From a virus (lineage: Duplodnaviria > Caudoviricetes), in IMG/VR virus record IMGVR_UViG_3300036766_002286: a stretch of DNA of 64,000 nucleotides. One strand, written 5' to 3'. Every line of letters begins with the position of its first letter. The first letter of the stretch is position 1. The notes below the pieces were generated by a model. The model searched no databases. It was not told the origin of the DNA and saw nothing but the letters and a program-made list of their open reading frames with translations. The position numbers were made by a program, and so were the translations under genes. Positions 5,236 through 55,763 of the stretch are shown here, one piece after another.

Positions 5236-5292
5236 AATTAAGTCATATATGTTTTTATTTTACTATATTCAGACTTTATATATGAACAGTAA

Positions 5293-6936: not shown

Positions 6937-7031
6937 GGAGTGACCGGTAAAGCATTCACGAAAGTTTGTGCATAGACACCTGCGGAACGACAGTCGACTC
7001 GAACCGAAACCGGGTACTCGAACAACTTCAT
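6933..7031 (-). pseudogene. Possible internally deleted IS607-type tnpA remnant
   Basis: MKLFEY start resembles IS607 resolvase N-terminus (MKLSEYA); ATGA overlap with tnpB. Confidence 0.35.
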
Positions 7032-7093
7032 ACCTATACTATGCCTTACCTAGTAGATTATGCAACTATATAACACAATAAAGTTCCATAAAA

Positions 7094-15357: not shown

Positions 15358-15908
15358 CTATACGATATTTTTCAATAGATGTCTACCAAGCGTCCCGTCC
15401 GGCATTATTGTGTCTTCTAAATTTGCTTCCATTATATTTGCAGAATAAGGTTTGCTTTTAAAAATATGGCATCCCAAAGCTGAGCGCCTTTCAAGTTTGC
15501 GCCTATTAGATTAGCCCCCACGAAATTGGCATCCGGGCAAAAAGCGTTTTCAAGGTTCACATAAGATAAATCGGCGCCTTCCAAATCAGCATTAAGGAGT
15601 CTCACCCCGATCATATTAGTTGCACTCAGATCTGCTCCGTGTAAATTAGTCCTTTCCAGCAAAGACATACATAGGTTAGCACCTTTTAACCTGCTGAAAG
15701 ATAAATTCGCGTTTCTAATAGCACAATAAGACAAGTTTGCGTAAGTAAAGTCAGTGTCTGAGAGGTTCGCGCCATACAAGTTACAGCGGGAAAAATCACT
15801 TCCAGCCAAGTCCACACCAGTAAGACAAACTCTGCCATTTTGTATAGTTTGGGCGAGCGTCATAACTTCCCCATCTCTAGTTACATATTCGATAGCTGAT
15901 TTAGTCAT
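15358..15908 (-). pseudogene. Pentapeptide repeat protein, frameshifted near 3' end
   Basis: Restoring one T (CTT-TAT) near 15447 continues the frame into DTIMPDGT...TAG. Confidence 0.7.
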
Positions 15909-15921
15909 TTTACTCTTGATT

Positions 15922-16539
15922 TCATGGTAAGTTATAATAGTTTAATAATCTTGTTTGCACCAAACCATCTGGCATTATTACAATTTCTAAGTTAGCTTCT
16001 TCAATGTTTGTATTTCGAAGGTTCGCTTTGAAAAATGTCACCAGCTTAAAACTAGCATACTTGAAGTTAGCTCCTCTAAAGTCTACTCCCCCAAATAAAG
16101 CTCCCTCACAGGTAACATTTTCCAGATTCACTCCTACCATCGTAGCTCCATCTAAATTGGTACTATCAAGATTTGCATTAGTCAAATTCGCACCCGTCAA
16201 GTCCGATCCGCGCATGTCAGCACAACTAAGGTTTGTGCCAGTTAAGTTCGCATCTAAGAAAGTAGCACCTCTTACGCTAGCATGTCTTAAACTAGCATAA
16301 CTAAGGTCTGCTCTATTTAATGTAGCCCCTGTTAAATTAGCATATCTTAAAAGAGCTTGATTAAGATTCGCCTCGGATAGCTTGCTATTTGCCAGATTAA
16401 CGTTGAATAGGTCAGCATTACTAAAATCAGCTCCGACTAGGTCCATATCAGCTAAACATATATTATCATCAAAGGTGTGGCGTTCTAGTACTATTATTTC
16501 CCCATCTCTGCTCAAGTATCGAACGTCTGGATTTTTCAT
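15922..16539 (-). CDS. Pentapeptide repeat protein
   Basis: YLSRDG N-cap, repeats, IMPDG C-cap. Confidence 0.9.
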   Translation of the reverse strand: MKNPDVRYLSRDGEIIVLERHTFDDNICLADMDLVGADFSNADLFNVNLANSKLSEANLNQALLRYANLTGATLNRADLSYASLRHASVRGATFLDANLTGTNLSCADMRGSDLTGANLTNANLDSTNLDGATMVGVNLENVTCEGALFGGVDFRGANFKYASFKLVTFFKANLRNTNIEEANLEIVIMPDGLVQTRLLNYYNLP

Positions 16540-16544
16540 TTTAT

Positions 16545-17084
16545 TTAACTGTGATTTGTCCCAGTCGGCATACTAGCACCTTCAAGTATTACGCCACGCA
16601 GGTCTGTCTGAAAAAGGTTCGCCTTAAATAATGTCGCCCAAGTCAGATTAGCATTTTGAAGAGTAGCTCCCTTAAGATCCGCCCCCACAAATTTTGTCAT
16701 CCAGCACCCAGCCCCAGTCAAATTAGCGCCTCTAAGATTCGCACCTTCAAAATTAGCGTTGTGAAGCACCGCATATTTCAAGCTAGTCGAAGTTAGGTCA
16801 GCATTTTTAAGGTCGGCTCCGTATAAATCAGCAAAATCAAGATTTGCATCAGTTAAGTTACTGTTGGTGAGCTTACTAAATTTCAAATTAACTTTACTAA
16901 AGTTAGCCCCGGTCAGATCCGACCCTTGCAAATAAGCCCCATCTAGGTTGATGTTTCTAAAATCCGCACCTTTCAGATCCATATAAGGCATACACACGTC
17001 ATCAGGGTATGGATATGATGAACCACAGAGTACTAGTTTTACTTTTAGACCGTCTCTGCTCAAATATTCATCTTTGTTTTTCAT
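16545..17084 (-). CDS. Pentapeptide repeat protein
   Basis: YLSRDG N-cap, repeats, SMPTG C-cap. Confidence 0.9.
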   Translation of the reverse strand: MKNKDEYLSRDGLKVKLVLCGSSYPYPDDVCMPYMDLKGADFRNINLDGAYLQGSDLTGANFSKVNLKFSKLTNSNLTDANLDFADLYGADLKNADLTSTSLKYAVLHNANFEGANLRGANLTGAGCWMTKFVGADLKGATLQNANLTWATLFKANLFQTDLRGVILEGASMPTGTNHS

Positions 17085-17130
17085 TCCACTCCCTCCTAAT
17101 ACTATTACCGCTTTTACATGTTTTAGTATA

Positions 17131-17664
17131 TTATATATGTACAGTTCCGTCTGGCATTATGCATCCCATCATTCGAGCGCCTGTAAAATCAGTTCCAATA
17201 ATATTGGCTCCACGCAAGTCAGCATATTCTAGGTTCACGTCGCGCAACGTTGCTTTAAATAAATTTGCTTTGTGAAACTCTGCTTTGTATAAATTTGCGC
17301 CACGCAGCGTTGCGTGTCTTAGGTCACAACCAGTCCAGTTGCTATGGTCACATGCAGCTTTCTCTAAGTTCGCGTAGCTCAAGTTTGCTCCCTCTAAGCA
17401 GGAACGTGCAAGCCGTGCTTCTTTCAAAGTTCCTTCAGTTAAATTGGCAGATGTTAAATTAGCACGCGCTAGCTTGGCCCCATTGAAATTAGTTTTCCTA
17501 GGGTCTCTGTCTACAAGACAAATATTATACACGTCTGTAAAACTTAAATTAGCCCCTGCTAGATCTACCCCCACTAAATGCGCACAGACTCCTCTTTCAT
17601 CTAGCTCTGAGCTTATTATTTTCCCAGTTGCGCTCGCAAACTCTGATCTAAGTTCTCTAGGCAT
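17131..17664 (-). CDS. Pentapeptide repeat protein
   Basis: Start MPRELR overlaps upstream gene by 8 nt; IMPDG C-cap. Confidence 0.9.
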   Translation of the reverse strand: MPRELRSEFASATGKIISSELDERGVCAHLVGVDLAGANLSFTDVYNICLVDRDPRKTNFNGAKLARANLTSANLTEGTLKEARLARSCLEGANLSYANLEKAACDHSNWTGCDLRHATLRGANLYKAEFHKANLFKATLRDVNLEYADLRGANIIGTDFTGARMMGCIMPDGTVHI

Positions 17665-18196
17665 GTATAACACCATCTGGCATTATACATCCCGCCATAT
17701 AAGCACCCTTAAAGTCAGTTTCGATAATGTTGGCTCCAATCAAATTAGCCTTCTCTATGCTAGCGTACCTTAAGGTTGCTTTAAACAGATTTGCTTTAAC
17801 CAGGCTTGCCCCCTGAAGATGTGCATTTTTAAAGTTTGTATAACTCAAGTCAGCTCCTCTGAAATTACTATCATAGCACCAAGCGTACTCTAAATTTGCA
17901 CGAGCAAAATTTGCACCCTCTAAATTAGCATGTGCTATATTTGTACACCACAAATCAGCTCCCCGTAAGTCAGCATTACTTAAATTGGCATGGGGAAGAT
18001 AAGCATTTTTAAAGTTCGCATCGCAAAGGTTGCTGTGCGACAGGTCTGCTACCATCAAGTAACAATCAGTAAAATCACAACCACTCAGATCCATGTTCGC
18101 AAGTCCATGGCACACCCCAAATTCATTCACCTCTAAGCTAATCACTATACCTTCTCTGGTTGTGTACTGCGTTCTTAGTTTTTGAGATTTAGTCAT
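17657..18196 (-). CDS. Pentapeptide repeat protein
   Basis: YTTREG N-cap, repeats, IMPDG C-cap. Confidence 0.9.
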   Translation of the reverse strand: MTKSQKLRTQYTTREGIVISLEVNEFGVCHGLANMDLSGCDFTDCYLMVADLSHSNLCDANFKNAYLPHANLSNADLRGADLWCTNIAHANLEGANFARANLEYAWCYDSNFRGADLSYTNFKNAHLQGASLVKANLFKATLRYASIEKANLIGANIIETDFKGAYMAGCIMPDGVIHA

Positions 18197-18704
18197 GTAT
18201 GCTCCCGTCTGGCATTATGCATCCCCGCAAGTCAGCATCCATGAAATCAGCTCCAATAATATTTGCACCCGTCAAATCACTTCCCCGCATATCAGCATAT
18301 ACAAAACTACACTTAAATAAGTTTGCTTTACGAAAGTCTGTATTAGAAATAAGTGCCCAAGTAAAGCTCGCATATTTTAAGTCTGCTCCTCGAAAATTAG
18401 TATGTGAGCACCAAGCCTTATCTAAGGCTGCATAAGCTAAAGTCGCACCCTCTAAATTAGCCCCAAGAAGATGTGCGTGCGTCAAGTTGCATTTAGTCAA
18501 ATCTGCGCCAACCATAATAGTGTGGTTAAGAGACGCCTGGGATAGACCACTAGCTGTTAAGTCTGCTCCTGTTAGATTTATATAATCGAAATTTGTTCCC
18601 ACTAAATCCTTGTTCGCTAATCCTATGCAGATTCCGGCCTCATTACGATCTAGAGCAACCCTGGCCCCGGCACGAGTAGTATATTCCGCCCCCATGTTAG
18701 CCAT
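18189..18704 (-). CDS. Pentapeptide repeat protein
   Basis: YTTRAG N-cap, repeats, IMPDGSIHD. Confidence 0.9.
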   Translation of the reverse strand: MANMGAEYTTRAGARVALDRNEAGICIGLANKDLVGTNFDYINLTGADLTASGLSQASLNHTIMVGADLTKCNLTHAHLLGANLEGATLAYAALDKAWCSHTNFRGADLKYASFTWALISNTDFRKANLFKCSFVYADMRGSDLTGANIIGADFMDADLRGCIMPDGSIHD

Positions 18705-19155
18705 GTATGCTCCCGTCTGGCATTATACATCCATGCATTACTGTCTCATCAAAAATGCAGTTTATAATGTTTGCACCAGTTAAAACAGCCAAACTAAGAT
18801 CTGTTCTGCACATAGTTACTCCCAGCAGGTTTGCTTTCGTAAATATAGCCCCTCTACATGAAGCGTAGCTTAAATCACATCCAGCCATGTTAGCGCCAGA
18901 AAAATTCGCTCCCACCAAACTAGCCCTTTTTAAGCTCGTGTTACACATTTCTGCACCCTCAAAATTGGCATACGGCATCTTAATGTCCGCCAGCATCATA
19001 TTAGACAAGTTCACACCACGCACATTAATGTCACTCGATAAACCCACTTCAGCCCCAGACAACACCCGCACACCCTCTCTGCCTGCAACTGCGTAAGCTA
19101 AGACTTCCTCACGGGTAAACAAAATCGTATGGCGGCCAATTTTATATTTGCTCAA
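18697..19155 (-). CDS. Pentapeptide repeat protein
   Basis: FTREEVL N-cap, repeats, IMPDGSIHG. Confidence 0.88.
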   Translation of the reverse strand: MSKYKIGRHTILFTREEVLAYAVAGREGVRVLSGAEVGLSSDINVRGVNLSNMMLADIKMPYANFEGAEMCNTSLKRASLVGANFSGANMAGCDLSYASCRGAIFTKANLLGVTMCRTDLSLAVLTGANIINCIFDETVMHGCIMPDGSIHG

Positions 19156-19186
19156 TTTGCTCTCCTTTTAGACTCACTACTCATCT

Positions 19187-19215
19187 ATACTATTGCCGGC
19201 TAACCTGCAAGACAA
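19187..19215 (-). promoter_or_regulatory. Putative sigma70-type promoter with repeated TTAGCC(G/C)GCAATAGTATA motif
   Basis: TTGTCT-17nt-TAGTAT; near-identical copies at 19994-20011 and 21072-21089. Confidence 0.55.
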
Positions 19216-19252
19216 AGCATCTTACGCAACTGCAACACGCTCCACCACCAGC

Positions 19253-19963
19253 TTATTTATGTAAGCTCCCATCTGGCATGGTAGCACCACTAAGGTCAGC
19301 ATTTTTTAACTGTGATTTTCTTATCTCAGCCGAAGTCAAGTTTGCTCCTCTAAATACTACGTCTTCAAAAATTGCATTATGAAAATCAGCGTATTCTAGA
19401 TTAGCGTTGCTCATGTTTGTTCTAGTTAACCTACTATCCCGGAAACTGACACCAGACATGTAAGCACCTCGCACGTCTGCATCAGTTAAATTACAATTAT
19501 CTAAAGTGGAGCCCTCTAGATCCGTTATATACTTTTTTCCATCACCCGCCATATTGGCATTGGTCAAGTTAGCGCCCGTAAGGTTTGTATTTATAAGCGT
19601 AGCCCTGGTCAAATTGACGTTAATCAGGCTTGCATTTTCTAAATATGCTCCGTCTAAATCACAACCACTTAAAACACAATTGTCTAGTAATGCACCAGAC
19701 AAATTAGCATAATATAAACGTGCTTGTGTCAGATCACAGTTTGATAGATTAGCACCCCCCAACTTTGTCTCAACCAGATTGGCTTGCGACAGATTTGAGC
19801 CTAAAAAATTTACTCCTTGTAATTTCATTTCGCTCAAATCCATACCACTTAAACTCATACCAGCTGTGATCATATCCAGCACATCAGTACGGCTAGGCTG
19901 TTTTGCCTCGAAGCTCTTATTTTTGTCCAAAATTTCTTCCCGATTAAGTTTCCTATATATCAC
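19253..19963 (-). CDS. Pentapeptide repeat protein
   Basis: Duplicated helical N-cap, GDGKKYIT loop, ATMPDGSLHK. Confidence 0.9.
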   Translation of the reverse strand: MIYRKLNREEILDKNKSFEAKQPSRTDVLDMITAGMSLSGMDLSEMKLQGVNFLGSNLSQANLVETKLGGANLSNCDLTQARLYYANLSGALLDNCVLSGCDLDGAYLENASLINVNLTRATLINTNLTGANLTNANMAGDGKKYITDLEGSTLDNCNLTDADVRGAYMSGVSFRDSRLTRTNMSNANLEYADFHNAIFEDVVFRGANLTSAEIRKSQLKNADLSGATMPDGSLHK

Positions 19964-19993
19964 TATGCTCTCCTTTTAATCCCTCTAGTTACA

Positions 19994-20011
19994 TATACTA
20001 TTGCGGGCTAA
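19994..20011 (-). promoter_or_regulatory. Copy of the GCAATAGTATA promoter-like motif
   Basis: TTAGCCCGCAATAGTATA upstream of 19963 start. Confidence 0.5.
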
Positions 20012-20059
20012 TCTACAAGAGAAACTGTTTTATATAGTAATAAATCATAGACCATCGTC

Positions 20060-20602
20060 TTACCTACAGATACTCCCATCTGGCATGGTGCATCCTCTCA
20101 AAAGAAAAGCCACAGTTAGGTCAGCACCTACAATATTAGCGCCGATCATGCTACTGTATTTCAAATCAGCTTTAGTTAGATTTGCACCATTTAGGTTTGC
20201 TTTATTGAAATTTGCTTTGTAAAAACTCGCTTTAGATAAATTGGCTCTCCTGAGGTCAGCTCCTTGAAAGTTGCAAGCTACACACCAAGCATCCTCTAAA
20301 TTTGCAGCACTTAAATCCGCTCCCTCAAAATTAGCATTCGCAAGGTCGGTGTACATTAAATTAGCACCAATTAAAGTAGCACCATGCAGGTCAGCCTGAT
20401 TCAAATTAGCATAGGTAAAATTAGCCCCCGTCAGGCCAGAGTGCGATAAATCTGCTCCAAATAAGGCTGTTTCACTAAAGTCGCAGCCCACTAAATCCAT
20501 GTTTGCTAACAATATATGACCTGATGTTTTATCTTTATATAAGTCAACTAAAACACCATCTCTGGTTTTATACTGCATCCCAGCCCCACCTCCTCTACGC
20601 AT
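20060..20602 (-). CDS. Pentapeptide repeat protein
   Basis: YKTRDG N-cap (start may be 20578), TMPDGS C-cap. Confidence 0.9.
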   Translation of the reverse strand: MRRGGGAGMQYKTRDGVLVDLYKDKTSGHILLANMDLVGCDFSETALFGADLSHSGLTGANFTYANLNQADLHGATLIGANLMYTDLANANFEGADLSAANLEDAWCVACNFQGADLRRANLSKASFYKANFNKANLNGANLTKADLKYSSMIGANIVGADLTVAFLLRGCTMPDGSICR

Positions 20603-21035
20603 ATTTGCGCACCATTGTTTCTATCCACGCCCTCTGTTCCTGAATTCCCCCATTCGGCATTATACACCCAAGCGCCTCAACTCCATCAAAATTACAATCT
20701 ATTACATTGGCTCTAAAAAAGTTTGCCTTCACTATATTCGCACCTTCAAAACTACACCTGAATAAGTTAGCTTTTTCAAACTCAGTCCCACAGCATCGTG
20801 AATAACTACAATCAGCAGAGCGCAAGTCAACCCCACTCAAATCGCTTCCGTTTAGTCTAGCTCCCTTTAAGTTAGCAAAACTTAAATTAGCCCCCGTAAA
20901 ATCGCAATAAGACATTTTAACATTTTCTAAATTACAATAAGATAAGTCTATCCCACGCACGTTTATCCCCATAAGGTCGCCCGCATCATCGACTATAAAC
21001 GACAAAATTTCTTCTCTACTGTATTTTCGAAACAC
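20595..21035 (-). CDS. Pentapeptide repeat protein
   Basis: YSREEIL N-cap, IMPNG C-cap. Confidence 0.88.
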   Translation of the reverse strand: MFRKYSREEILSFIVDDAGDLMGINVRGIDLSYCNLENVKMSYCDFTGANLSFANLKGARLNGSDLSGVDLRSADCSYSRCCGTEFEKANLFRCSFEGANIVKANFFRANVIDCNFDGVEALGCIMPNGGIQEQRAWIETMVRKYA

Positions 21036-21071
21036 TATTCACCTCCAGGTCTCCCACTCGTCTATATCGAA

Positions 21072-21089
21072 TATACTATTGCGGGTTAA
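21072..21089 (-). promoter_or_regulatory. Copy of the GCAATAGTATA promoter-like motif
   Basis: TTAACCCGCAATAGTATA upstream of 21035 start. Confidence 0.5.
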
Positions 21090-21118
21090 TTAAAACTAGT
21101 AGCTTATATCCAGCTATT

Positions 21119-21910
21119 TTACTCGAATTTACTTCCATCAGGCATAATCGCGCCCGCCACCTCAGCGAATTCGAAGTCACAATCGGTCATTATCGCACCT
21201 GTAAAATCAGCGTCTCTTAAGTCCGTCCGTCGAAAATCTATCTTGTCCAGATTAGCATAAATAAAGTTTGCCTTCACAAGTCTTGCATTATTGAATCTTG
21301 CCGAAGTAATCGTGGATTTAGTAAAACTACAATACTCGCACCTACCCCCAGCAAAAGTTACCTCTAACATGCGCGCGCCATCAAGTTGCCCATAAGACAC
21401 GTCTGCTTGCATTAAATTACTTCTAATAAGTTCCGCACCCCGTAAATCAGCCTTATGTAAAACTGCTGCCACAAAACTACAATCTATAATAGTTATTTTG
21501 GATAAGTCAGCTTCCGACAGCACGCTACCTGTAAAGTCTGTCTTGTTAAGATTTGCTTTACTAAATTTTGTTTTAACAAGGTTTGCATTACTGAATCTTG
21601 TTTCAGCTAGAGTAGTTCCTGTAAAATTAGCACTATGACCCTTAGTCGAATCAAAACTTGCACCCCGCAGGTCCGCTCCTTCAAAATTAGCACTAGATAA
21701 AATTAATTCTTTCAAATTTACACAACTAAGATTAGCCGACCTAAAATTAACACCAGTAAAGTTAACTTTATTTTCACTTAAAGCAACCCCACGGAAGTCG
21801 CAATGAGACAAGTCAAGATTAGCAGCACTGAATCCCCACACACCACAAGATAAAAAAGCAAAACCCCCATGTCTGTCAATATATTTTATATCAGTTCTCG
21901 TAGCTTTCAT
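21119..21910 (-). CDS. Pentapeptide repeat protein
   Basis: Start MKATRTDIKYIDRHG; AIMPDGS C-cap. Confidence 0.9.
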   Translation of the reverse strand: MKATRTDIKYIDRHGGFAFLSCGVWGFSAANLDLSHCDFRGVALSENKVNFTGVNFRSANLSCVNLKELILSSANFEGADLRGASFDSTKGHSANFTGTTLAETRFSNANLVKTKFSKANLNKTDFTGSVLSEADLSKITIIDCSFVAAVLHKADLRGAELIRSNLMQADVSYGQLDGARMLEVTFAGGRCEYCSFTKSTITSARFNNARLVKANFIYANLDKIDFRRTDLRDADFTGAIMTDCDFEFAEVAGAIMPDGSKFE

Positions 21911-21911
21911 G

Positions 21912-22415
21912 TTAGTTCCCCTGATCAAAATAATAAAAAGGATAGACAGTGCCGTCGGGCATAATAGCACCTCTCATATGGCAATTAATAAAGGTGGTGC
22001 CAAGAATGTTTGCGCCTTTCAAATTGGCATACTCCAAGACCGCAGAACCAGCCAAAGTAGCACCATATAAATTCACTTTAAATAGGTTTGCCCGTCTAAA
22101 ACTTACGGTATCAAGCACAGCGAAAGCAAGGTTAGCTCCTTGAAGTACTATATCTTCGCAACGCACCCTCTCAAGGGTTGCGCCTGTCAAATCCGCACCC
22201 TCTAAATCAGCTCTGTACATGGCAGCCCCGACCAACTTAGCCCCGTGTAGATTGGCGCCCTGTAGTTTTAGATAGCTAAGGTTAGTAAAACTTAAATCAG
22301 CATAGCTGAGGTCACAATCACGCAGGTCTTTACCTAGCCAAGGTCCACCCCACGGCAGTTCACATGAAGTACCTTCTCGGTCAATATATTTTATGTTTCC
22401 TCTTATATATTTCAT
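21912..22415 (-). CDS. Pentapeptide repeat protein
   Basis: IKYIDREG N-cap, AIMPDGT. Confidence 0.9.
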   Translation of the reverse strand: MKYIRGNIKYIDREGTSCELPWGGPWLGKDLRDCDLSYADLSFTNLSYLKLQGANLHGAKLVGAAMYRADLEGADLTGATLERVRCEDIVLQGANLAFAVLDTVSFRRANLFKVNLYGATLAGSAVLEYANLKGANILGTTFINCHMRGAIMPDGTVYPFYYFDQGN

Positions 22416-22473
22416 GTTCTCTCCCTTATATTATTCTCCATTTTCACAGTTGTGTAATGCAGTCATTATAATT

Positions 22474-22971
22474 CTATTTATGTACGCTACCATCCGGCAT
22501 AACCATATCTGCCATGTTTGCCCTTGTAAAATCAGCGCCCATAATATTTGCACCCAGCATTGATGCTTCCCGCAAGTCAGCTCCTATAAAACTAGCTTTG
22601 AATAAGTTTGCTTTGGTTAAATCTGCAGCATATAAAGTTGCACCCAAAAAGTTACAATAACTAAGGTCCGCTCCTTCAAATATTGTGCGTTTGCACCCAG
22701 CATGGCTGAAGTCAGCCCCATGACAGTTTGCCCCGACTAGAATCGCACCCTTGAGATTGGCACGAGCAAAACAGCCATCTATAAGACAAGATCCTGTCAA
22801 ATCAACTTTCAGCATGACGGCGCGAGAAAAGTTAGCCCCGCGCAACGCGCAACGACTTAGGTCAGAAAAAGGAAGATTACACTCAGTAAGATTAATATTT
22901 TCTAAGTTTTCATCCATTCTTACATATGCAGGCTTCATATTTTTATCATAATAGAAAACGTCTGATTTCAC
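22474..22971 (-). CDS. Pentapeptide repeat protein
   Basis: Repeats, VMPDGSVHK. Confidence 0.9.
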   Translation of the reverse strand: MKSDVFYYDKNMKPAYVRMDENLENINLTECNLPFSDLSRCALRGANFSRAVMLKVDLTGSCLIDGCFARANLKGAILVGANCHGADFSHAGCKRTIFEGADLSYCNFLGATLYAADLTKANLFKASFIGADLREASMLGANIMGADFTRANMADMVMPDGSVHK

Positions 22972-23019
22972 TGGGTTTTCTCCAGTAATTTATCATCATT
23001 CAATGCAATCTCTAAAATA

Positions 23020-23439
23020 TTACACATGCTTACTCCCGTCCACCATGATAGCACCTCTAAGTTCAATAGCGCGCTCGAAATCACAGTTTACTACATTAGC
23101 GCCAGTTAAGTCGGCATTCTGAAAATACGCCCCGCCTACTTCTGTTTCAAGCATATTAGCACCCTTTAGATTAGCGCTGCTCAAGTTACTGCTAGTAAAG
23201 TTTGTTTTAAATAAATTTGCTTTTTCAAATATTCCACCATTAAGATATCCACCTGTAAAATCGGCACTAGTCAGGTCTGCTCCACTAAAGTTTGTAAACA
23301 TACAACTTGCAAAAATAAAGCCAGCACCGCACAACACCGCCCCCCGCATGCTACAATAGGAGAAATCAACTCCTGCAAAGCCAGTATTCGCTAAAACACC
23401 CGGGTTTCCTTCCCTCTCAATATAGTTGATATTTTTCAT
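23020..23439 (-). CDS. Pentapeptide repeat protein
   Basis: YIEREG N-cap, IMVDGSKHV. Confidence 0.88.
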   Translation of the reverse strand: MKNINYIEREGNPGVLANTGFAGVDFSYCSMRGAVLCGAGFIFASCMFTNFSGADLTSADFTGGYLNGGIFEKANLFKTNFTSSNLSSANLKGANMLETEVGGAYFQNADLTGANVVNCDFERAIELRGAIMVDGSKHV

Positions 23440-23984
23440 AAGGTTTTGTCGCCGCGCTGAAACACACTATAACGGCTAAAGAAATCAAAAGTATAAATAC
23501 TGCCATCCGGCATTGTTGCTCTTTCCAAGCTAGCGCCTGTAAAATCAGCGCACCCGATGTTCGCGCCCTCTAAATTAGCACGGCTTAGATCCGCGCAACG
23601 TAGATCTGTTTTATAAAGGTTTGCTTTAAAAAAGTTTACATTATATAAGTGTGCATTTTCAAATATAGCACCCTCAAGATTTGCTCCTTCAAAGCTAGCG
23701 CTTCCACACACAGCCCCACTGAGGTTTGCGCCCCGCAAGTTCACGCCGCACAAATCAGCACCGGTCAGGTCTGTTTCCCTTAAGTTAGCAGCGCTAAGAT
23801 TTGCACCCCGAAGTATACTTCTAAACATGTTTGCTTTACAAAAATTTACTTCACTTAAATCAGCCCTGGTCAGCTCAGCTCCTTGAAAATCAGCACCCCG
23901 CAGATCTTCGTCCGACCGGGCTCGTCCCCACACCAGTTCCCGCAAAACACCCTCACGGTCTATATATTTGACATTAGTTTGCAT
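23436..23984 (-). CDS. Pentapeptide repeat protein
   Basis: Start MQTNVKYIDREG after GGAG; ATMPDGS. Confidence 0.9.
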   Translation of the reverse strand: MQTNVKYIDREGVLRELVWGRARSDEDLRGADFQGAELTRADLSEVNFCKANMFRSILRGANLSAANLRETDLTGADLCGVNLRGANLSGAVCGSASFEGANLEGAIFENAHLYNVNFFKANLYKTDLRCADLSRANLEGANIGCADFTGASLERATMPDGSIYTFDFFSRYSVFQRGDKTL

Positions 23985-24001
23985 TGCTGTGCTCTCCAAA
24001 C

Positions 24002-24511
24002 CTACTCATGTCTGCTCCCATCTGGCATTATAGCTCCCAAAAGGTTGCAACCAGTAAAGTTTGTGCCCGCTATATCTGCACCAAAAAAACTAGCTCCCGT
24101 ACAATTGGCATTTGTAAAATCGCTACCCTTAAGGTTAGCCTTCGTAAAGACACAATTTTCTAAATTTGCCTTAAACAAGTTAGCCCCTTGTAAATGAGCG
24201 CCCAATAAGCTTGCATCAAACATAGACACCCCACTAAGATCACAGTGAGCAAGATTTGCCTTATCAAGCAATATGAAAGGCATGTCGGCCCCATGAAAGT
24301 TAGCTCCGACCAAATTAGCTCCTTCAAGATTAGCATTCTCTAAATTAGCACAGGTGAAGTTAGCACCTCTAAGGTCTCTTCCATTAAGAGTCACACTAAA
24401 TAAGTAAGCCCAAGATAAATCAATTCCAACAAGGTTAGTACCCTTTTTTACCATAACAGTTTTCCCTGCCTTATCAAGATATATAAAATCATACTTTGCC
24501 CCATTATACAT
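24002..24511 (-). CDS. Pentapeptide repeat protein
   Basis: YLDKAG N-cap, IMPDGSRHE. Confidence 0.9.
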   Translation of the reverse strand: MYNGAKYDFIYLDKAGKTVMVKKGTNLVGIDLSWAYLFSVTLNGRDLRGANFTCANLENANLEGANLVGANFHGADMPFILLDKANLAHCDLSGVSMFDASLLGAHLQGANLFKANLENCVFTKANLKGSDFTNANCTGASFFGADIAGTNFTGCNLLGAIMPDGSRHE

Positions 24512-25178
24512 GTATACTCCCGTTTGGCATGATGGTTTCAGTTAGAATTGCATCATGTAGCCTCGAGATTTTCAAGCTCGCACCGAAAAGATTTGCATGA
24601 GAAAAATTTGTGCAAGTAAAAGTCCCTTTAGTCAAGTTAGCTTTCTCCAAGTCAGCATTCGAGAAATCAGCATTTGTTGAATCAGCGCCCTCTAAATCAG
24701 CTCCCCGCATGTCTGCAAAACTAAAATCTGCTTCAGCTAAGACTGCCTCGCACAAGAATGTTCGATGCTTATCATCCGCACCACACATAATAGCATTGCT
24801 AAAACAGGCCTGGTATAAATAAGCCTTACTAAAACTTGCTTTAGTTAAATTAGCATAAGTGAAACTACAACCGATGGCTTGTACTTTATATAAGACAGCT
24901 CCAGCTAAGTGAGCATTCGAGAAATTAGCAGACATTAGATTTGTCTCAGAAAGATTGGCTTTAGTTAGATCACAGTTTGACATATCAGCATTTTTACAAT
25001 TAGCACCCGCCAAGTCCGCTCCCGCCAAAGATAAACCTTTAAAATCTATGTCATGTAAATCAAGATCCCATAATACAGCATCTGCCAAGCTTTCTTTGTT
25101 TTCTATAGCATCAAGCACTTCAGATCTAGTAAATATCCGATCGTCAGGATGTCTAAAGTCGTAGCTACCTTCAGGCAT
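24504..25178 (-). CDS. Pentapeptide repeat protein
   Basis: Start MPEGSY coupled to upstream gene; GADDKHRT loop; IMPNGSIHV. Confidence 0.9.
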   Translation of the reverse strand: MPEGSYDFRHPDDRIFTRSEVLDAIENKESLADAVLWDLDLHDIDFKGLSLAGADLAGANCKNADMSNCDLTKANLSETNLMSANFSNAHLAGAVLYKVQAIGCSFTYANLTKASFSKAYLYQACFSNAIMCGADDKHRTFLCEAVLAEADFSFADMRGADLEGADSTNADFSNADLEKANLTKGTFTCTNFSHANLFGASLKISRLHDAILTETIMPNGSIHV

Positions 25179-25671
25179 GTATACTCCCATCTGGCATAAC
25201 TGCACCCCTAAGGTTAGTATTAGTAAAGTTACAACCCTCTATATATGCACCAAAAAAATTAGCATACCTACAATCGGCAGATGAAAAATCAGCGCCCTTA
25301 AGGTTAGCCTCCGTAAAATCAGCCTCGTCCGCACGTACGCCTCTTAACGTAGCTCCTTGTAAATTAGCGCCCCGCAAATCTGCTCGCTGCATATCAGCAT
25401 CCGTTAGATCACAATTATGTAGATCTGCTCTATTAAATGAAGTGTCCATCAAGACAGCCGCAATCATACTTGATCCACTAAGGTCAGCGCCGCTCAGGTC
25501 AGCGGCTATAAAGTCAGCACGCGCCAAACGGGCGCCCATAATATCTCTTCCACTGAGATCACAACCAGATAACTCACAACCAGATAAATCAATTCCCACC
25601 AAACTAACACCCTTTTTTAAAACAGCAGCCTTATCATTACTATCAATATAGTCAATATCTTGATTTTTCAT
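25171..25671 (-). CDS. Pentapeptide repeat protein
   Basis: IDYID N-cap, VMPDGSIHA. Confidence 0.9.
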   Translation of the reverse strand: MKNQDIDYIDSNDKAAVLKKGVSLVGIDLSGCELSGCDLSGRDIMGARLARADFIAADLSGADLSGSSMIAAVLMDTSFNRADLHNCDLTDADMQRADLRGANLQGATLRGVRADEADFTEANLKGADFSSADCRYANFFGAYIEGCNFTNTNLRGAVMPDGSIHA

Positions 25672-25841
25672 ATTAGGTAAACACTCCCATCTAGCATAAT
25701 AGCGTCTTTAAGGTTTCTTCCCTCGAAGTTTACTTCAGTAAAACTAGTATAAGATAAATCAATTCCCTCAAGACTTTCGTTTTTTCTCAAAACATGTGGG
25801 TTATCATCCTCATCAGTATATTCAATATCATGATCATTCAT
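25668..25841 (-). CDS. Collapsed mini pentapeptide repeat protein (57 aa)
   Basis: N-cap IEYTD, about 4 repeats, C-cap IMLDGS; coupled at both ends. Confidence 0.7.
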   Translation of the reverse strand: MNDHDIEYTDEDDNPHVLRKNESLEGIDLSYTSFTEVNFEGRNLKDAIMLDGSVYLI

Positions 25842-26607
25842 AGATACTCCCATCGGGCATAGTAGCCCCACTCAAGTTAGCACCCTTAAATACTATACCC
25901 GCAAATTGGTCCATACTTAAACTAACTCCCCTAAAAACCCCGCCAATTAAATTAGCATAGCTAGAATGACACTTGGTTAAATTTGCCCCTCTTAGCTTTG
26001 CACCCTCAAACCTGGTATTTGCAAGGTCTGTTTTAGATAGGTTCGCTTCGCATAAAGTAGCATACTTAAAATTTGCATTGCTTAAATTACAGTCTTCTAG
26101 GTCCGCTAGAGTTAGGTTCGCGCGGGTGAAATCAGCCCCTGCTAGGTGTCTTTCTCGTATATCTGCCCTTGTTAAATTGGCATCGCGAAAATTAGTGTAA
26201 GTAAATATCTTCTTCCAACTCGCGTCGTTTTTGTCCCCAATCATAATTGCACCAACTAAGATAGCTTTTTGGAAATTGGCATCTCTGATGTCTGTTTTAG
26301 TCATATTGGCTTCAAAAAAATTAGCATTTTTTGCAACGCATTCTCGCATATTAGCTCCAGCTAAACTACAATTAGACATGTTAGCCGAATCGAGACTAGC
26401 TCTTAGTAGCTGCGCACGAGTCAAGTCACACCTAACCAGATTAGCATTTTGTAGTTGAGTTGCCCCCAACATAGCCCCGGACAGGCTAATCCCAGAAAAA
26501 TCAATACCATTTAAATCAAGTCCCGTCAAATTACAATCCGCCAAAGTACCTCTGTTAGCTATAATTTCTAAAACCTGTTCACGAGATAAGCTCTTGCCGT
26601 TTTTCAT
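25834..26607 (-). CDS. Pentapeptide repeat protein
   Basis: LSREQVL N-cap, GDKNDASWKK loop, ATMPDGSIYE. Confidence 0.9.
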   Translation of the reverse strand: MKNGKSLSREQVLEIIANRGTLADCNLTGLDLNGIDFSGISLSGAMLGATQLQNANLVRCDLTRAQLLRASLDSANMSNCSLAGANMRECVAKNANFFEANMTKTDIRDANFQKAILVGAIMIGDKNDASWKKIFTYTNFRDANLTRADIRERHLAGADFTRANLTLADLEDCNLSNANFKYATLCEANLSKTDLANTRFEGAKLRGANLTKCHSSYANLIGGVFRGVSLSMDQFAGIVFKGANLSGATMPDGSIYE

Positions 26608-26743
26608 ATAAATATTCTCCCTTTAGTGTTTGTAAAGCCCAGTTTAACTAAATTTACCATATGAACACTTGCTGCTAGCACGTGATAAACAATCATTATT
26701 AGTATGTTTTTATGATTTAAGACCATACAATGCTCAAAGCGAA

Positions 26744-27243
26744 CTATTTATGAATACTCCCATCTGGCATAATAGCGCCAAAAAGTTTACAACCAGTAAA
26801 GTCGCATCCCTCTATATCTGCTCCTTTAAAATTAGCACCACACAAGTCAGCACCTGTGAAATCAACTTTTTTAAGATTGGCACCAGTTAAGTCAACATAA
26901 TCTAGAATTGCATAAACTAATTTCGCACTATACATACTAGCCCCAATCAAAGTAGTCCCGTACAGCTCAGCTTCAGTTAAATTTGCGTAATTAAGGTTTG
27001 CTTTATTTAAGGTTACTTGCGACAGGTTTGTTTTAATCATGGTAGCAAAAGTTAAATCAGCACCTTCAAGGTCTGTGTGTGCTAAGTCACTCGCATCAAA
27101 GTTACAACCTCTAAGATCTCTACCCACAAGCTTTGCATTGTGTATCAGACAATACGATAAATCAATTCCTACAAGATTAGCATCCCCCGCAAAATAGCAA
27201 ACTTTCCATCTATATCCATATACTTAACATCAAATTTTGTCAT
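26744..27243 (-). pseudogene. Pentapeptide repeat protein, frameshifted near 5' end
   Basis: AAGGAGG-ATG MTKFDVKYMDIDG; one more G in the G5 run near 27186 would join it to 26744..27127. Confidence 0.75.
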
Positions 27244-27470: not shown

Positions 27471-27824
27471 ATGAGTGATCGAAAAGCCCGCAACGCAGCT
27501 AGCGCTTCAGCCCTGGAAGTATACAAAGCAGCTGAGCTTCTAGCTTCTGTAGAATATCAGGCTGTATTGAAACCCGCTGAAGCCATTTATCAAGCTGTCA
27601 GTAGAGCCGCACATCGCGCCTATCAGGAGACCCATTATTCAATTGGCAACAGCGAATCCAGAGCAGCCCAGGAAGCCGCTTTTAACACTCTTTTATGCGA
27701 CGCCGCCAAGTCTAGAGATACTATTGTTGCTCCAGCAAAAGCTAGGTACCATGCAGTTGTTGCCGCCGCATTCGCTGTATATATTGAAACCACAGCCAAA
27801 ATCGCGAGTGGAGATTTATCATGA
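27471..27824 (+). CDS. Ala-rich helical hypothetical protein, paralogue 1
   Basis: GGAGG RBS; ends YIETTAKIASGDLS. Confidence 0.75.
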   Translation: MSDRKARNAASASALEVYKAAELLASVEYQAVLKPAEAIYQAVSRAAHRAYQETHYSIGNSESRAAQEAAFNTLLCDAAKSRDTIVAPAKARYHAVVAAAFAVYIETTAKIASGDLS

Positions 27825-28186
27825 ATGATCGTAAAGACCGTAGAGCAGCAATCGTTGCCGCCCAAGCTATATATCAAACCATCCAAAGTCAAGCATTTGA
27901 AGAGTATAGAGCCGTAGAACTCCCAGCCACCGCCGCATATGAAGTTTGTCGGAACACAGCTGTCCCAGGCGCAAACGATCTAGGGGCTGTGCATCCTAGA
28001 GACTTCATGCAACACGAAATCGCCCAAGCACTCGCAGCCGGACGTCAAATGTTCCTAGCTGATGCTCTAGCAGCTAGAGACGCCACAATCGCTCCCGCCA
28101 AAGCCAAATATCAAGCAACTGTGGCCACCGCATTTGCTGCGTATATCGAAGCTTGTGCAAAAATCGAAAGCGGAGACTTATCATGA
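27821..28186 (+). CDS. Ala-rich helical hypothetical protein, paralogue 2
   Basis: Ends YIEACAKIESGDLS; ATGA overlaps. Confidence 0.75.
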   Translation: MNDRKDRRAAIVAAQAIYQTIQSQAFEEYRAVELPATAAYEVCRNTAVPGANDLGAVHPRDFMQHEIAQALAAGRQMFLADALAARDATIAPAKAKYQATVATAFAAYIEACAKIESGDLS

Positions 28187-28524
28187 GCTCCCGCGGCACA
28201 ATTCGACCTGGCCTCGAGCCCGCCAAAAGCATATTGAAAGCCGCCCAAGATCAAACTTCTGCAAGATATAAGCCCATACTACAAGCAGCTCAAACTAAAT
28301 ATTTCGCGGGCTGTGCTGCAGCTAAGCAAGCCCTTATGGAAACCCTTGATGCTGATCACACTTATGCTCAAAAGTTAGCCTATGAAACTATTATACAAGG
28401 TCTAAAAGACACTAGAAACGCTACTATCCGCGCCGCCGAAGCCGAATATAATACAGCCATGACTAGTGCTCTTGCTATATATATTGAAACCGCAGCCAAA
28501 ATCACCACAGGAGATTTATCATGA
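28183..28524 (+). CDS. Ala-rich helical hypothetical protein, paralogue 3
   Basis: Ends YIETAAKITTGDLS; ATGA overlaps. Confidence 0.75.
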   Translation: MSSRGTIRPGLEPAKSILKAAQDQTSARYKPILQAAQTKYFAGCAAAKQALMETLDADHTYAQKLAYETIIQGLKDTRNATIRAAEAEYNTAMTSALAIYIETAAKITTGDLS

Positions 28525-28730
28525 GCAGTAACGCAAAAGACACTCTAACCGATATCTATACTTTACGTATCGATATTTATGATGCCTTAAAAAAGTTCCA
28601 AGATTCTCAAAATATTAAAGTTAGTGACGAAGATTGGATGATTTTAGTTAAACACGCTGATATTTTAGCAGAGGTTTTAGTTCAAGCAGCCGCATCTGCA
28701 GCCGACATTAGCCGCTATTCAAGATACTAA
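28521..28730 (+). CDS. Small hypothetical protein
   Basis: GGAG RBS, ATGA coupling. Confidence 0.6.
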   Translation: MSSNAKDTLTDIYTLRIDIYDALKKFQDSQNIKVSDEDWMILVKHADILAEVLVQAAASAADISRYSRY

Positions 28731-47638: not shown

Positions 47639-48472
47639 CTATTTATGCAAGCTCCCGTCCGGCATAATTGCAGAAGCAAAATCCGCACTCGAAACATTTG
47701 TAGCTACACCAACTGCCCCAAGCAAATTAGCGCCCCGTAAAATTGCTCCCTTAAAATCTGCATAATCAAGATTAGCACCCCTTAGATCGGCTTCCCGCAG
47801 GTCAGCATGCGAGAAATTTACACCAGCCGAATTTGTTTCACTTAGATTAGCAGCTGTTAGATTTGCATGTTCAAAATTGCTATCTTCTAGAGTGGCGAGC
47901 CGCAAATCAGCAAAACTTAAGTTAGCAGAAGTAAGATTAGAGCTATCTATATGTGCGCCTTTTAAGGTTGCTCTAAATAAGCAGGCTTTTCTTAAATCTG
48001 CGCGACTAACGTTCACTCCATCCATATTAGCGTCAGTTAAATTAGCACCGCACAACATTGCCCCTTGTAAGACAGCACGAAAGTCACCAATCCCGGACAT
48101 ATTCACAAAGCTAAGATTTGCATTATATAAATTAGCACTATATAGGTAACTTCTAGTCAAATTGGCATAGGTGAGATCAGCATTTGCGAGATTAGCACAG
48201 GTAAGACACGCGCCAGCAAGCATAGCAGAACTAAGTTTAATACCTCCCATTTGCACACTATGAAAATTGCTTCCAGTCAAATCAGCGCCATTAAGATTAG
48301 CACCTGTAAGTATAGTTTCTCGAAAATCACAGAAGTAAAGCTGACCATTTTTAAGATCCATGTCACTTAAATCCATAGCCGCAAGTATACTATGCGATAG
48401 ATTAGCACCAACCGCAACGCCAGCTGCAAGTTGTTTACGACCTATTCTAGGTATCGGCGGCATGTTACGCAT
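47639..48472 (-). CDS. Pentapeptide repeat protein
   Basis: Repeats; GIGDFR loop; IMPDGSLHK. Confidence 0.9.
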   Translation of the reverse strand: MRNMPPIPRIGRKQLAAGVAVGANLSHSILAAMDLSDMDLKNGQLYFCDFRETILTGANLNGADLTGSNFHSVQMGGIKLSSAMLAGACLTCANLANADLTYANLTRSYLYSANLYNANLSFVNMSGIGDFRAVLQGAMLCGANLTDANMDGVNVSRADLRKACLFRATLKGAHIDSSNLTSANLSFADLRLATLEDSNFEHANLTAANLSETNSAGVNFSHADLREADLRGANLDYADFKGAILRGANLLGAVGVATNVSSADFASAIMPDGSLHK

Positions 48473-50070: not shown

Positions 50071-50649
50071 ATGACCAATAAACTAGCTCGTAAACAAGTC
50101 CTATATCGTATCGCCCATGGTCTTCCATTGTATAATATGGATTTATCAAGGCTAGACCTGCACGGACTTGACCTGACTAAGGTCAACTTTACACATTCAA
50201 ATCTACGTGGCGCGGATCTATCACACGCCACTCTAGCTGGAGCAATCCTATGTCGTACCAATTTTAATGATGCAAACCTATCTTATGCTAATTTGACAAG
50301 GGTAATTGCTCCCATGGCAACTTTTGATAACGCTAATTTGCAAGGCATAAACGCGCAAGGTCTACTCAAATATAGAGCTGTTATGACCAACTGTTCCATG
50401 CGAGATGTTAATTTAACTGGCGCCCAGATGCAGGGCATCAATCTGTATGGTGTCGATTTAAATGGTGCTGACTCAACAAATGCTAATTTCTCGAACGCCG
50501 ACTTGGAGGATGCCGACCTAACTAAAGGAACTTTCACTGGTACCAATTTCACACGTGCAAATCTTAAAGGCGCGCGACTAAGCCCCTCAAAGCTAGATGG
50601 AGCCATTCTAACCGGAGCTACTATGCCAGATGGGAGTAAACATGTGTAA
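50071..50649 (+). CDS. Pentapeptide repeat protein (apparent chimera)
   Basis: N-half resembles 49201, C-half resembles 24504; ATMPDGSKHV. Confidence 0.9.
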   Translation: MTNKLARKQVLYRIAHGLPLYNMDLSRLDLHGLDLTKVNFTHSNLRGADLSHATLAGAILCRTNFNDANLSYANLTRVIAPMATFDNANLQGINAQGLLKYRAVMTNCSMRDVNLTGAQMQGINLYGVDLNGADSTNANFSNADLEDADLTKGTFTGTNFTRANLKGARLSPSKLDGAILTGATMPDGSKHV

Positions 50650-54980: not shown

Positions 54981-55763
54981 ATGCCAACCCCTAGAATCTA
55001 CAAAAACGAACGTGTCCCGCGAACACAGTACGTCGACTCGACAAAATGGATAGGTGCCTAGTTATATGAGGAAAATTTTGAAAGTGCTGATTTATCTGGA
55101 ATGGATATTTCTCAAGCAAACTTGCATGGAGTCAACCTGTCGCACGCCGACTTGTCAGGCACTCTTTTAGCTCGGACCAACTTGGCTGGCTCTCAGCTGG
55201 TTTATGCGCTTCTTGACGGCACAAACTTCACGTCCGCCAATCTCCGCTCCGCTTTACTAGCAAATGCCCGTATGATGCAAGCCATTTTGGATCAAGCAGA
55301 TTTAACGCTAGCTGATTTACGTGGTGTCTACTTGTATAAAGCATCTATAACACGCGCCAACCTAAAAAGCGCGAATCTTGAAGGTGCAGATCTTCGCATC
55401 GCTGATTTATCTAATTCAATTATGTCTTTTGTAAATTTTCAAACTGCAAATTTAGAAGGAGCTAAACTTATTAGCGTTACAGCAGTAAGGGCGTTTTTTA
55501 ATGGAGCCGATCTCAGTCGTGCTAACCTACATCATGCAGATATGCACAACTCAAGTCTCACGCAAAGTATTCTACAAGATGCCAATCTAACTTCGGCCTC
55601 ATTTGCAGGCGCTGACCTTAGAGAAGCCGATCTTACACACACAATCCTAGCCAATTCCGACCTCAGCGGAGCAGATCTCACCTGGGCCGCAATAAAAGAC
55701 ACTGATCTATCGCAAGCTGTTCTCACAGGTTGCACTATGCCAGATGGTACTATACATGTATAA
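54981..55763 (+). pseudogene. Pentapeptide repeat protein with in-frame TAG at codon 27
   Basis: AAGGAG-ATG at 54981 in frame with 55101..55763; CTMPDGTIHV. Confidence 0.75.

What the first reader, a model, noticed from the sequence alone, without database searches (positions are those of the whole stretch)
17657..25860. The conserved C-cap MPDGS-x-H is dual-coded as RBS plus start codon of the next gene
Seen: the cap is encoded ATG CCA GAY GGG AGY ATA CAT GNN stop. GGGAG forms a Shine-Dalgarno and CAT-G supplies the next ATG 5 nt later, giving identical 8-nt overlaps at 18697-18704, 18189-18196, 17657-17664, 24504-24511, 25171-25178, 25834-25841, 50642-50649 and 55756-55763 (SD weaker at 17657 and 55756). 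At 25834 His is replaced by Tyr (TAT-G), which keeps the ATG. Caps ending HK/HI/HT/HP (19253, 22474, 26744, 17131, 56487, 57194) make no ATG, and there the next gene has its own GGAG. Inference: each gene carries the translation start for whatever lands behind it, so duplicated cassettes are expressed at once. This would be a self-coupling array-building mechanism.
Basis: partly seen in the sequence, partly recalled or inferred. Interest (0 to 1): 0.8.

Follow-up and report, generated by a model that had tools for sequence, protein, structure and literature searches.

The report
Protein tail encodes next gene's start
In a tandem array of pentapeptide-repeat genes on a 616-kb uncultured element, the last codons of one gene also carry the ribosome-binding site and ATG of the next; this is a tidy case of ordinary translational coupling, not a new array-building mechanism.

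Summary
All eight 8-nt start/stop overlaps sit at the stated coordinates. Seven open full pentapeptide-repeat protein (PRP) paralogues. The eighth, at 50642, opens only a 33-codon remnant. In five real junctions the Gly-Ser codons read GGGAG 5 nt before the ATG, which is within the 4-9 nt GGAG spacing seen at other predicted gene starts in this window. Junctions 17657 and 55756 lack this site.

The codon choice is not random. GGG-AGY occurs in 13 of 19 Gly-Ser caps, against 5 of 64 Gly-Ser pairs elsewhere in the window. It occurs in 0 of 61 unrelated MPDGSIHx-stop caps from metagenomes. The neighbouring Asp codon sits at background.

The link to coupling is weak. Eight of 14 Gly-Ser caps without a coupled gene also carry GGGAGY. 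By presence of the ATG the split is 8/8 against 5/11 (Fisher p=0.017). By presence of a real downstream gene it is 5/5 against 8/14 (p=0.11).

The -8 overlap with a Shine-Dalgarno site inside the upstream gene is a described class of coupled gene pairs. The junctions most likely spread by tandem duplication, and two relic junctions show decay after gene loss. Nothing supports a dedicated self-coupling, array-building mechanism. First-stage notes on another window of this genome raise the same idea. I found no relatives on other DNA.

The parts
18697..18723 (-). Cap MPDGSIHG-stop of gene 18697-19155. GGGAG lies 5 nt before ATG 18704, which starts gene 18189-18704 (-8 overlap).
18189..18215 (-). 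Cap MPDGSIHD-stop of gene 18189-18704. GGGAG plus ATG 18196 start gene 17657-18196 (-8 overlap).
17657..17683 (-). Cap MPDGVIHA-stop. ATG 17664 starts gene 17131-17664 (-8 overlap). No GGGAG (GGTGT). The local hairpin has z about -2.8.
24504..24530 (-). Cap MPNGSIHV-stop of gene 24504-25178. GGGAG plus ATG 24511 start gene 24002-24511; this is the first start codon of that ORF.
25171..25197 (-). Cap MPDGSIHA-stop of gene 25171-25671. GGGAG plus ATG 25178 start gene 24504-25178. Upstream in-frame ATG 25190 and GTG 25205 have no SD at a usable distance.
25834..25860 (-). Cap MPDGSIYE-stop of gene 25834-26607. GGGAG plus TATG (ATG 25841) start the 57-aa mini-PRP 25668-25841.
55737..55763 (+). Cap MPDGTIHV-stop. 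ATG 55756 starts gene 55756-56487 (-8 overlap). No GGGAG (GGTAC).
50623..50649 (+). Cap MPDGSKHV-stop with GGGAG and CATG. The frame behind it closes after 33 codons, so this is a remnant of a lost PRP gene. The homologous N-terminus begins at the second ATG.
23020..23046 (-). Relic junction. The cap MVDGSKHV-stop with GGGAG, CATG and the following TAATAT is homologous to the 50649 junction. It opens a 19-codon ORF whose TGA overlaps the GTG start of gene 22474-22971.
24002..24028 (-). Relic or relay junction. The cap MPDGSRHE-stop with GGGAG and CATG opens an 11-codon ORF that overlaps the SD-led ATG 23984 of the next gene.
19253..19279 (-). Uncoupled cap MPDGSLHK-stop that still reads GGGAGC. 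A 97-nt spacer with the GCAATAGTATA motif follows, and the next gene has its own GGAG.
20060..20086 (-). Uncoupled cap MPDGSICR-stop reading GGGAGT. A spacer with GCAATAGTATA follows.
26744..26770 (-). Uncoupled cap MPDGSIHK-stop reading GGGAGT. A 136-nt spacer follows, and the next gene has its own GGGAG site.
47639..47665 (-). Uncoupled cap MPDGSLHK-stop reading GGGAGC, outside the main array.
25668..25697 (-). Cap MLDGSVYLI-stop with a -4 (ATGA) overlap onto gene 25171-25671. GGGAG lies 14 nt before that ATG.
15358..27127 (-). Head-to-tail array of about 21 PRP genes. The paralogues are at most 47% identical to each other.

Best explanation
This is a polycistronic array of old PRP paralogues on a 616-kb uncultured element. 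At seven junctions the last three codons of the upstream gene (His or Tyr, a free residue, stop) overlap the first 8 nt of the next gene. At five of those junctions the Gly-Ser codons of the conserved MPDGS cap read GGGAG 5 nt before that ATG.

Inferred mechanism: a ribosome finishing the upstream gene re-initiates at the ATG just behind it (or a new 30S subunit binds there), helped by SD pairing. The genes are thus translationally coupled without any spacer.

The last residue is unconstrained and His CAT/CAC is synonymous, so the ATG costs the protein nothing. Gly GGG is a synonymous choice and appears to be held by selection where an ATG follows. The junction type most likely spread by tandem duplication of cap-to-cap units and decays when the downstream gene is lost or a promoter-bearing spacer is inserted.

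Shown: the geometry, the homology of the downstream N-termini, the codon bias and its restriction to this lineage. Inferred: that the ATGs are used, that the SD matters, and the duplication history.
For: - Coordinates and sequences of all junctions are. Seven of the nine -8 junctions in the window lie at MPDG caps.
- Downstream N-termini opened by cap ATGs align at Met1 with 12 paralogues that start independently. Each has 2-10 residues before the conserved Tyr (Phe in gene 17131).
- GGAG lies upstream of 47 of 101 predicted starts, spaced 4-9 nt (mode 7). The cap spacing is 5 nt, and the pairing energies for the two cap sites scored, about -6.6 and -6.8 kcal/mol, are similar to those of many other predicted starts.
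- Gly is GGG in 17 of 30 caps against an 18% background (p=2e-6). GGGAGY occurs in 13 of 19 Gly-Ser caps against 5 of 64 elsewhere (p=3e-7). Asp GAT/GAC in the same caps sits at background (17:9), so shared ancestry alone does not explain the bias.
- GGGAGY occurs in 0 of 61 unrelated MPDGSIHx-stop caps. Among caps that use AGY for Ser, the count is 13 of 18 here against 0 of 11 there (p=1e-4). No cap ATG in that set opens more than 34 codons.
- Gly-Ser caps with an ATG at +5 are 8 of 8 GGG, against 5 of 11 without one (p=0.017).
- Paralogues are at most 47% identical, so synonymous sites should be saturated.
- The 23020 and 50649 junctions share GSKHV-stop plus TAATAT, and both have lost the gene behind them.
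- The -8 spacing and SD sites inside the upstream gene are described features of coupled gene pairs (PMC12548453; PMC6728339).
Against: - There is no expression or translation data.
- Two real junctions (17657, 55756) have no SD, so the SD is not required for the arrangement.
- Eight of 14 Gly-Ser caps without a coupled gene also read GGGAGY (p=0.001 against background). Scored by real downstream gene, the contrast is not significant (5/5 against 8/14, p=0.11).
- The caps are not phylogenetically independent, so all p-values are optimistic.
- Asp-Gly read as GAT-GGN creates a second in-frame ATG 12 nt upstream at 17657, 25171, 25834 and 55756. That ATG cannot be excluded as a start.
- No orthologous array exists to test conservation.
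Confidence: 0.7

Rival explanations
1. The cap is a selected, portable self-coupling module: every PRP gene carries SD plus ATG for whatever gene comes to lie behind it. The conserved cap DNA also serves as microhomology for cap-to-cap unequal crossover. New cassettes are therefore expressed at once, and the array builds itself.
For: - GGGAG and CAT persist in caps that currently have no coupled gene: 8 of 14 Gly-Ser caps read GGGAGY, and His is CAT in 7 of 8 caps that make no ATG.
- The cap is a recognisable nucleotide repeat family across the array, with 14 copies of 41 nt at 61-90% identity (family D10).
- The design is absent from unrelated PRPs.
- A second paralogue set in the window (27471-28730) has its own C-terminal motif, GDLS, which encodes SD, ATG and stop together.
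Against: - Selection cannot maintain a site for future use.
- The excess of GGG in caps with no ATG is marginal (5 of 11, p=0.03). Ancestry from coupled junctions can explain it, since relic junctions exist at 23020, 24002 and 50649.
- The 8 nt include the downstream gene's own conserved first codons, so a foreign gene would not be served.
- Exact nucleotide matches at caps are short and the flanks are diverged. No recent duplicate or chimeric gene pair was seen (paralogues at most 47% identical).
Confidence: 0.12
2. The overlapping ATGs are incidental. Downstream genes start elsewhere, at the Asp-Gly GATG 12 nt upstream or at a later codon. GGGAG is conserved for another reason, such as ribosome pausing before termination, local RNA structure or short-tract gene conversion.
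For: - GGGAG is enriched in uncoupled caps as well.
- Alternative in-frame ATGs exist at four junctions.
- At 50649 homology favours the second ATG.
- A hairpin covers the ATG at 18697, 18189 and 17657 (probability unpaired 0.07, 0.01 and 0.28).
Against: - At 24504 and 18189 the cap ATG is the first start codon of the ORF, ahead of the conserved N-terminal segment.
- The upstream GATG has no SD at a usable distance.
- Folding shows no structure shared by the junctions; most z-scores lie between -0.7 and +0.6, with -2.8 to -1.1 at five junctions.
- The ATG frequency in caps (9 of 17) far exceeds the expected 19%.
Confidence: 0.1
3. The pattern is pure inheritance. One ancestral gene happened to have GGG-AGY-...-CAT-G, and every copy keeps it by descent, with no selection on the DNA.
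For: Ser AGY cannot change to TCN without passing through a non-Ser codon, so AGY in 18 of 19 caps is expected from descent alone. All GGGAG caps belong to one family.
Against: The adjacent Asp third position is fully randomised (17 GAT to 9 GAC, against a 63% background). Paralogues are at most 47% identical. Gly GGG is still 57% against an 18% background, and 8 of 8 where an ATG follows.
Confidence: 0.08

Closest known systems
Translationally coupled gene pairs with -8 start/stop spacing (NTGNNTGA class) and an SD inside the upstream gene (Huber et al. 2019, PMC6728339; Huber et al. 2023, PMC10666635; Brown & Wade 2025, PMC12548453)
   Same: The genes are co-directional and show the -8 geometry. 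An SD lies in the 3' end of the upstream coding region at a normal distance. The likely mechanism is termination-reinitiation or SD-assisted initiation.
   Different: The same junction recurs seven times in one paralogue array. It is built from the codons of a conserved structural motif (Gly-Ser for the SD, His or Tyr plus a free residue for the ATG). In this array -8 outnumbers -4, whereas -4 is by far the commonest spacing in genomes generally. Coupling itself has not been tested here.
All3740 of Nostoc sp. PCC 7120, a solved pentapeptide-repeat protein (PDB 3DU1)
   Same: It ends in AIMPDGSIHD, matching the cap of gene 18189-18704 (CIMPDGSIHD) over the last nine residues. The cap is therefore an old, widespread PRP C-terminus.
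   Different: In 61 non-redundant unrelated caps of this type from metagenomes (All3740's own DNA was not examined), Ser is mostly TCN. GGGAGY never occurs, and no gene starts in the cap.
The GDLS paralogue set in the same window (27471-28730)
   Same: The C-terminal residues Gly-Asp-Leu-Ser are encoded as GGAGAYTTATCATGA. This holds the SD, the next ATG and the stop together, repeated at three junctions.
   Different: The overlap is -4 and the spacing 7 nt. The proteins are unrelated Ala-rich proteins. This shows the habit is general in this element and not special to PRPs.

Membership tests
Pentapeptide-repeat proteins (Pfam PF00805) | Tandem A(D/N)LXX repeats that match the Pfam model above its cut-off | tested here: met
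   Gene 18189-18704 scores 109 bits against PF00805, E=6.7e-32. PDB hits include designed and natural PRPs.
Pentapeptide-repeat proteins (Pfam PF00805) | C-terminal MPDGSxH cap as seen in solved or annotated PRPs | tested here: met
   3DU1 ends in MPDGSIHD. About nine unrelated database PRPs, such as P0024, P0058 and P0113, end in an (M/L)PDG(S/T)-type cap within 8-16 residues of the C-terminus.
-8 class of translationally coupled gene pairs | Co-directional genes with NTGNNTRR start/stop overlap | tested here: met
   Seven junctions at caps with real ORFs on both sides.
-8 class of translationally coupled gene pairs | The downstream ORF is a real gene that starts at the overlapping ATG | tested here: met
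   The downstream ORFs are PRP paralogues. Five of their N-termini align at Met1 with independently started paralogues. The exception is 50642, which is a remnant.
-8 class of translationally coupled gene pairs | SD motif within about 12 nt upstream of the downstream start | tested here: inconclusive
   GGGAG lies at 5 nt in five of seven real junctions and is absent at 17657 and 55756. The host 16S anti-SD is unknown. GGAG use was inferred from other genes in the window.
-8 class of translationally coupled gene pairs | Translation of the downstream gene depends on translation of the upstream gene | not testable with these tools
   This needs reporter constructs or ribosome profiling. No RNA run is listed for this DNA.

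The most novel reading that the evidence does not exclude
The nucleotide sequence of the C-cap is under selection as a unit, as both ribosome-binding site and recombination microhomology. PRP cassettes would then be duplicated, lost and shuffled cap to cap while staying translationally coupled. That would make it a built-in system for rapid diversification of a decoy-protein repertoire on a giant mobile element.
Probability: 0.12. Interest if true: 0.65.

Novelty: new member of a known kind. Interest (0 to 1): 0.3.

Why it matters
This is a clear natural example of dual coding. Synonymous freedom in a conserved structural motif (Gly third position, His third position, an unconstrained last residue) has been used to place a ribosome-binding site and a start codon inside the motif. 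The arrangement repeats through a paralogue array.

It is useful for annotation. Gene callers may prefer the longest ORF and so mis-start these genes; plain ORF listing did so at 17131, 24504 and 25668.

It also shows how a large uncultured element packs dozens of small genes without spacers. It does not reveal a new mechanism.

Tried and rejected
- Close relatives of the array were sought and not found. Genome contigs gave only 28-37% identical PRPs. Viral contigs gave none. The 5.8-billion-protein search gave a best hit of 46% identity apart from the window's own paralogue. Megablast against phages and plasmids found no match. The scan index held no look-alike.
- The exact dual-coded pattern (cap with GGGAGY and YATG) has no match in viral contigs.
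- No whole genome is held for this window, so genome-wide codon usage and a 16S anti-SD could not be obtained.
- Sequencing runs: one DNA run from a sediment metagenome, probably the source, holds the stretch. No RNA holder is listed.
- RNA folding of 14 junctions showed no shared structure.
- Consensus promoter and terminator scans of the array gave no more sites than shuffled sequence.
- GCAATAGTATA with up to 2 mismatches is no more frequent than chance across the window. Its three exact copies all lie in spacers upstream of genes 18697, 19253 and 20595.
- PHROG searches did not show phage hallmark genes in this window, and no tRNA was found.
- Frameshift fusion of neighbouring PRPs was considered and dropped, because no slippery heptamer is visible in the caps.


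Full report
**Context.** The window is part of a 616,293-bp contig. No whole genome is held for it. It has no close relatives in the genome, viral, phage or plasmid collections. Only one sediment-metagenome DNA run, probably its source, holds it. Pfam finds TnpB, HD, HIT/GNAT, subtilase, CapA and GT2 proteins around the array. The best named CapA relatives are actinobacterial, at about 48% identity. Earlier first-stage notes call it a giant mobile element or jumbo phage linked to Actinomycetota. I did not test that.

**The genes.** On the minus strand between 15358 and 27127 lie about 21 head-to-tail pentapeptide-repeat protein (PRP) genes. More lie elsewhere in the window. Gene 18189-18704 matches PF00805 at E=6.7e-32. 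Thirty genes end in an MPDG-type cap.

The cap is old and widespread. The solved Nostoc PRP All3740 (PDB 3DU1) ends in MPDGSIHD, the same eight residues as gene 18189-18704. Several unrelated database PRPs end the same way. The paralogues here are at most 47% identical to one another, so the duplications are old.

**Check of the observation.** Seven open full PRP genes. At 50642 the frame closes after 33 codons. That remnant's N-terminus, MQNQDINHID, matches MKNQDIDYID of the gene starting at 25671 and begins at the second ATG, just after the stop.

GGGAG lies 5 nt before the ATG at 18697, 18189, 24504, 25171, 25834 and 50642. At 17657 and 55756 the codons are GGT GTT and GGT ACT, and there is no Shine-Dalgarno (SD) site. 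Caps ending HK, HI, HT or HP make no ATG, and the next gene has its own GGAG-type site.

- Two caps with GGGAG and CATG, at 23020 and 24002, open only 19- and 11-codon ORFs.
- Five GGGAGY caps have no ATG 5 nt downstream: 19253, 20060, 26744 and 47639, plus 25668, which uses a -4 ATGA overlap.
- A -8 overlap at 20595 lies outside a cap.

**Are the cap ATGs the real starts?** I aligned the N-termini of 17 paralogues. The five opened by cap ATGs align at Met1 with twelve that start independently. Each has 2-10 residues before the conserved aromatic residue (Tyr; Phe in gene 17131) of the Y-x-D/T-R-x-G segment.

At 24504 and 18189 the cap ATG is the first start codon of the ORF, ahead of that segment. 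Where Asp-Gly is GAT-GGN, a second in-frame ATG lies 12 nt upstream. It has no SD at a usable distance.

GGAG is present upstream of 47 of 101 predicted starts in this window, spaced 4-9 nt with a mode of 7. The cap's 5-nt spacing falls in that range. The two cap sites scored pair at about -6.6 and -6.8 kcal/mol, similar to many other predicted starts.

**Codon choice.**
- Background use of GGG for Gly is 18%, and of AGY for Ser about 50%.
- In caps, Gly is GGG in 17 of 30 (p=2e-6). GGGAGY occurs in 13 of 19 Gly-Ser caps, against 5 of 64 Gly-Ser pairs elsewhere (Fisher p=3e-7).
- The neighbouring Asp codon sits exactly at background (17 GAT to 9 GAC). Descent alone therefore does not explain the GGG bias.
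- His is CAT in 16 of 17 caps (p=0.004).

As an outside control I scanned the metagenome collection for ATGCCNGAYGGNWSNATHCAYNNNTRR. Of 61 non-redundant MPDGSIHx-stop caps, none reads GGGAGY. Ser is mostly TCN. Among the 11 caps that use AGY, none has GGG, against 13 of 18 here (p=1e-4). Seven make CATG, but none opens more than 34 codons. The full dual-coded pattern has no match in viral contigs.

**Does codon choice track coupling?** Only weakly.
- Gly-Ser caps with an ATG at +5 are 8 of 8 GGG, against 5 of 11 without one (one-sided Fisher p=0.017).
- Counting only real downstream genes gives 5 of 5 against 8 of 14 (p=0.11).
- Uncoupled Gly-Ser caps are themselves above background (p=0.001).
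- The caps are related to each other, so these values are optimistic.

The simplest reading is that GGG is held where an ATG follows and is drifting back elsewhere. The 23020 and 50649 junctions support this. They share GSKHV-stop followed by TAATAT, and both have lost the gene behind them, so they are relics of once-coupled junctions.

**What it is.** This is translational coupling of the -8 class. Brown & Wade (2025, PMC12548453) list -8 (NTGNNTGA) with -4 and -1 as the enriched spacings. Huber et al. (2019, PMC6728339) show that downstream genes of overlapping pairs usually have an SD inside the upstream gene, and that its contribution varies from essential to none.

The same window holds a second paralogue set (27471-28730). 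Its C-terminal GDLS is encoded as GGAGAYTTATCATGA, which carries SD, ATG and stop together. Tight coupling through C-terminal codons is therefore a habit of this element and not a property of PRPs.

Uncoupled caps are typically followed by spacers. Three of these spacers carry an exact GCAATAGTATA upstream of the REE(I/V)L-type genes 18697, 19253 and 20595. That fits sub-operons, although consensus promoter scans were uninformative.

**The array-building inference.** I found nothing that requires it.
- The 8 nt include the downstream gene's own first codons. ATGACTAAATC recurs at the start of the frameshifted gene at 15908, where the upstream stop lies elsewhere.
- The module can therefore serve only a homologous unit copied cap to cap. 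That is simply what tandem duplication of an already coupled pair gives.
- No recent duplicates or chimeras were seen.
- The cap is a recognisable 41-nt repeat family (D10), so cap-to-cap crossover is possible. It remains conjecture.

**Verdict.** The dual-coded RBS-plus-start reading is probably right for five junctions and possible for two more. The mechanism is a known one. The evolutionary claim is unsupported.

Noticed in passing
window 5276-7126 (-): A TnpB-type element (ORF 5293-6936, Cas12f1-like TNB domain) sits inside the cap of PRP gene 7094-7693. Joining ...GGAAGTGT at 7110 to TCATATATAA at about 5284-5275 restores MPDGSVHI-stop.
   Followed up: partly
window 15358-15908 (-): This PRP gene is frameshifted. 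The ORF 15432-15908 stops early, and the cap MPDGTLGRHLLKNIV-stop lies in another frame. Its start ATGACTAAATC matches the -8 junction at 18196-18189.
   Followed up: partly
window 27471-28730 (+): Three junctions of an unrelated Ala-rich paralogue set end in GDLS, encoded as GGAGAYTTATCATGA. This holds SD, next ATG and stop in 15 nt (-4 overlap).
   Followed up: partly
window 22971-23046 (-): The cap ATG at 23027 opens a 19-codon ORF whose TGA overlaps the GTG start of gene 22474-22971 (GTGA). It may be a relay ORF or just a relic.
   Followed up: no
window 19186-19196, 19994-20004, 21072-21082 (-): Three exact copies of GCAATAGTATA lie in the spacers upstream of the three REE(I/V)L-type PRP genes. 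They are candidate sub-operon promoters.
   Followed up: partly
A weaker version occurs at 18697 and 18189. It could enforce strict coupling.
   Followed up: partly
window 57205-59065 (+): A second PRP sub-family ends in ET(I/R)RDxx-stop and is joined by -4 ATGA overlaps at 58104 and 58577, with only a weak AAGAG upstream.
   Followed up: no
window 25668-25841 (-) and 59574-59774 (-): Mini-PRPs of 57 and 66 aa keep a C-cap and only a few repeats (the 57-aa one also keeps an N-cap). They are probably internal deletion products.
   Followed up: no
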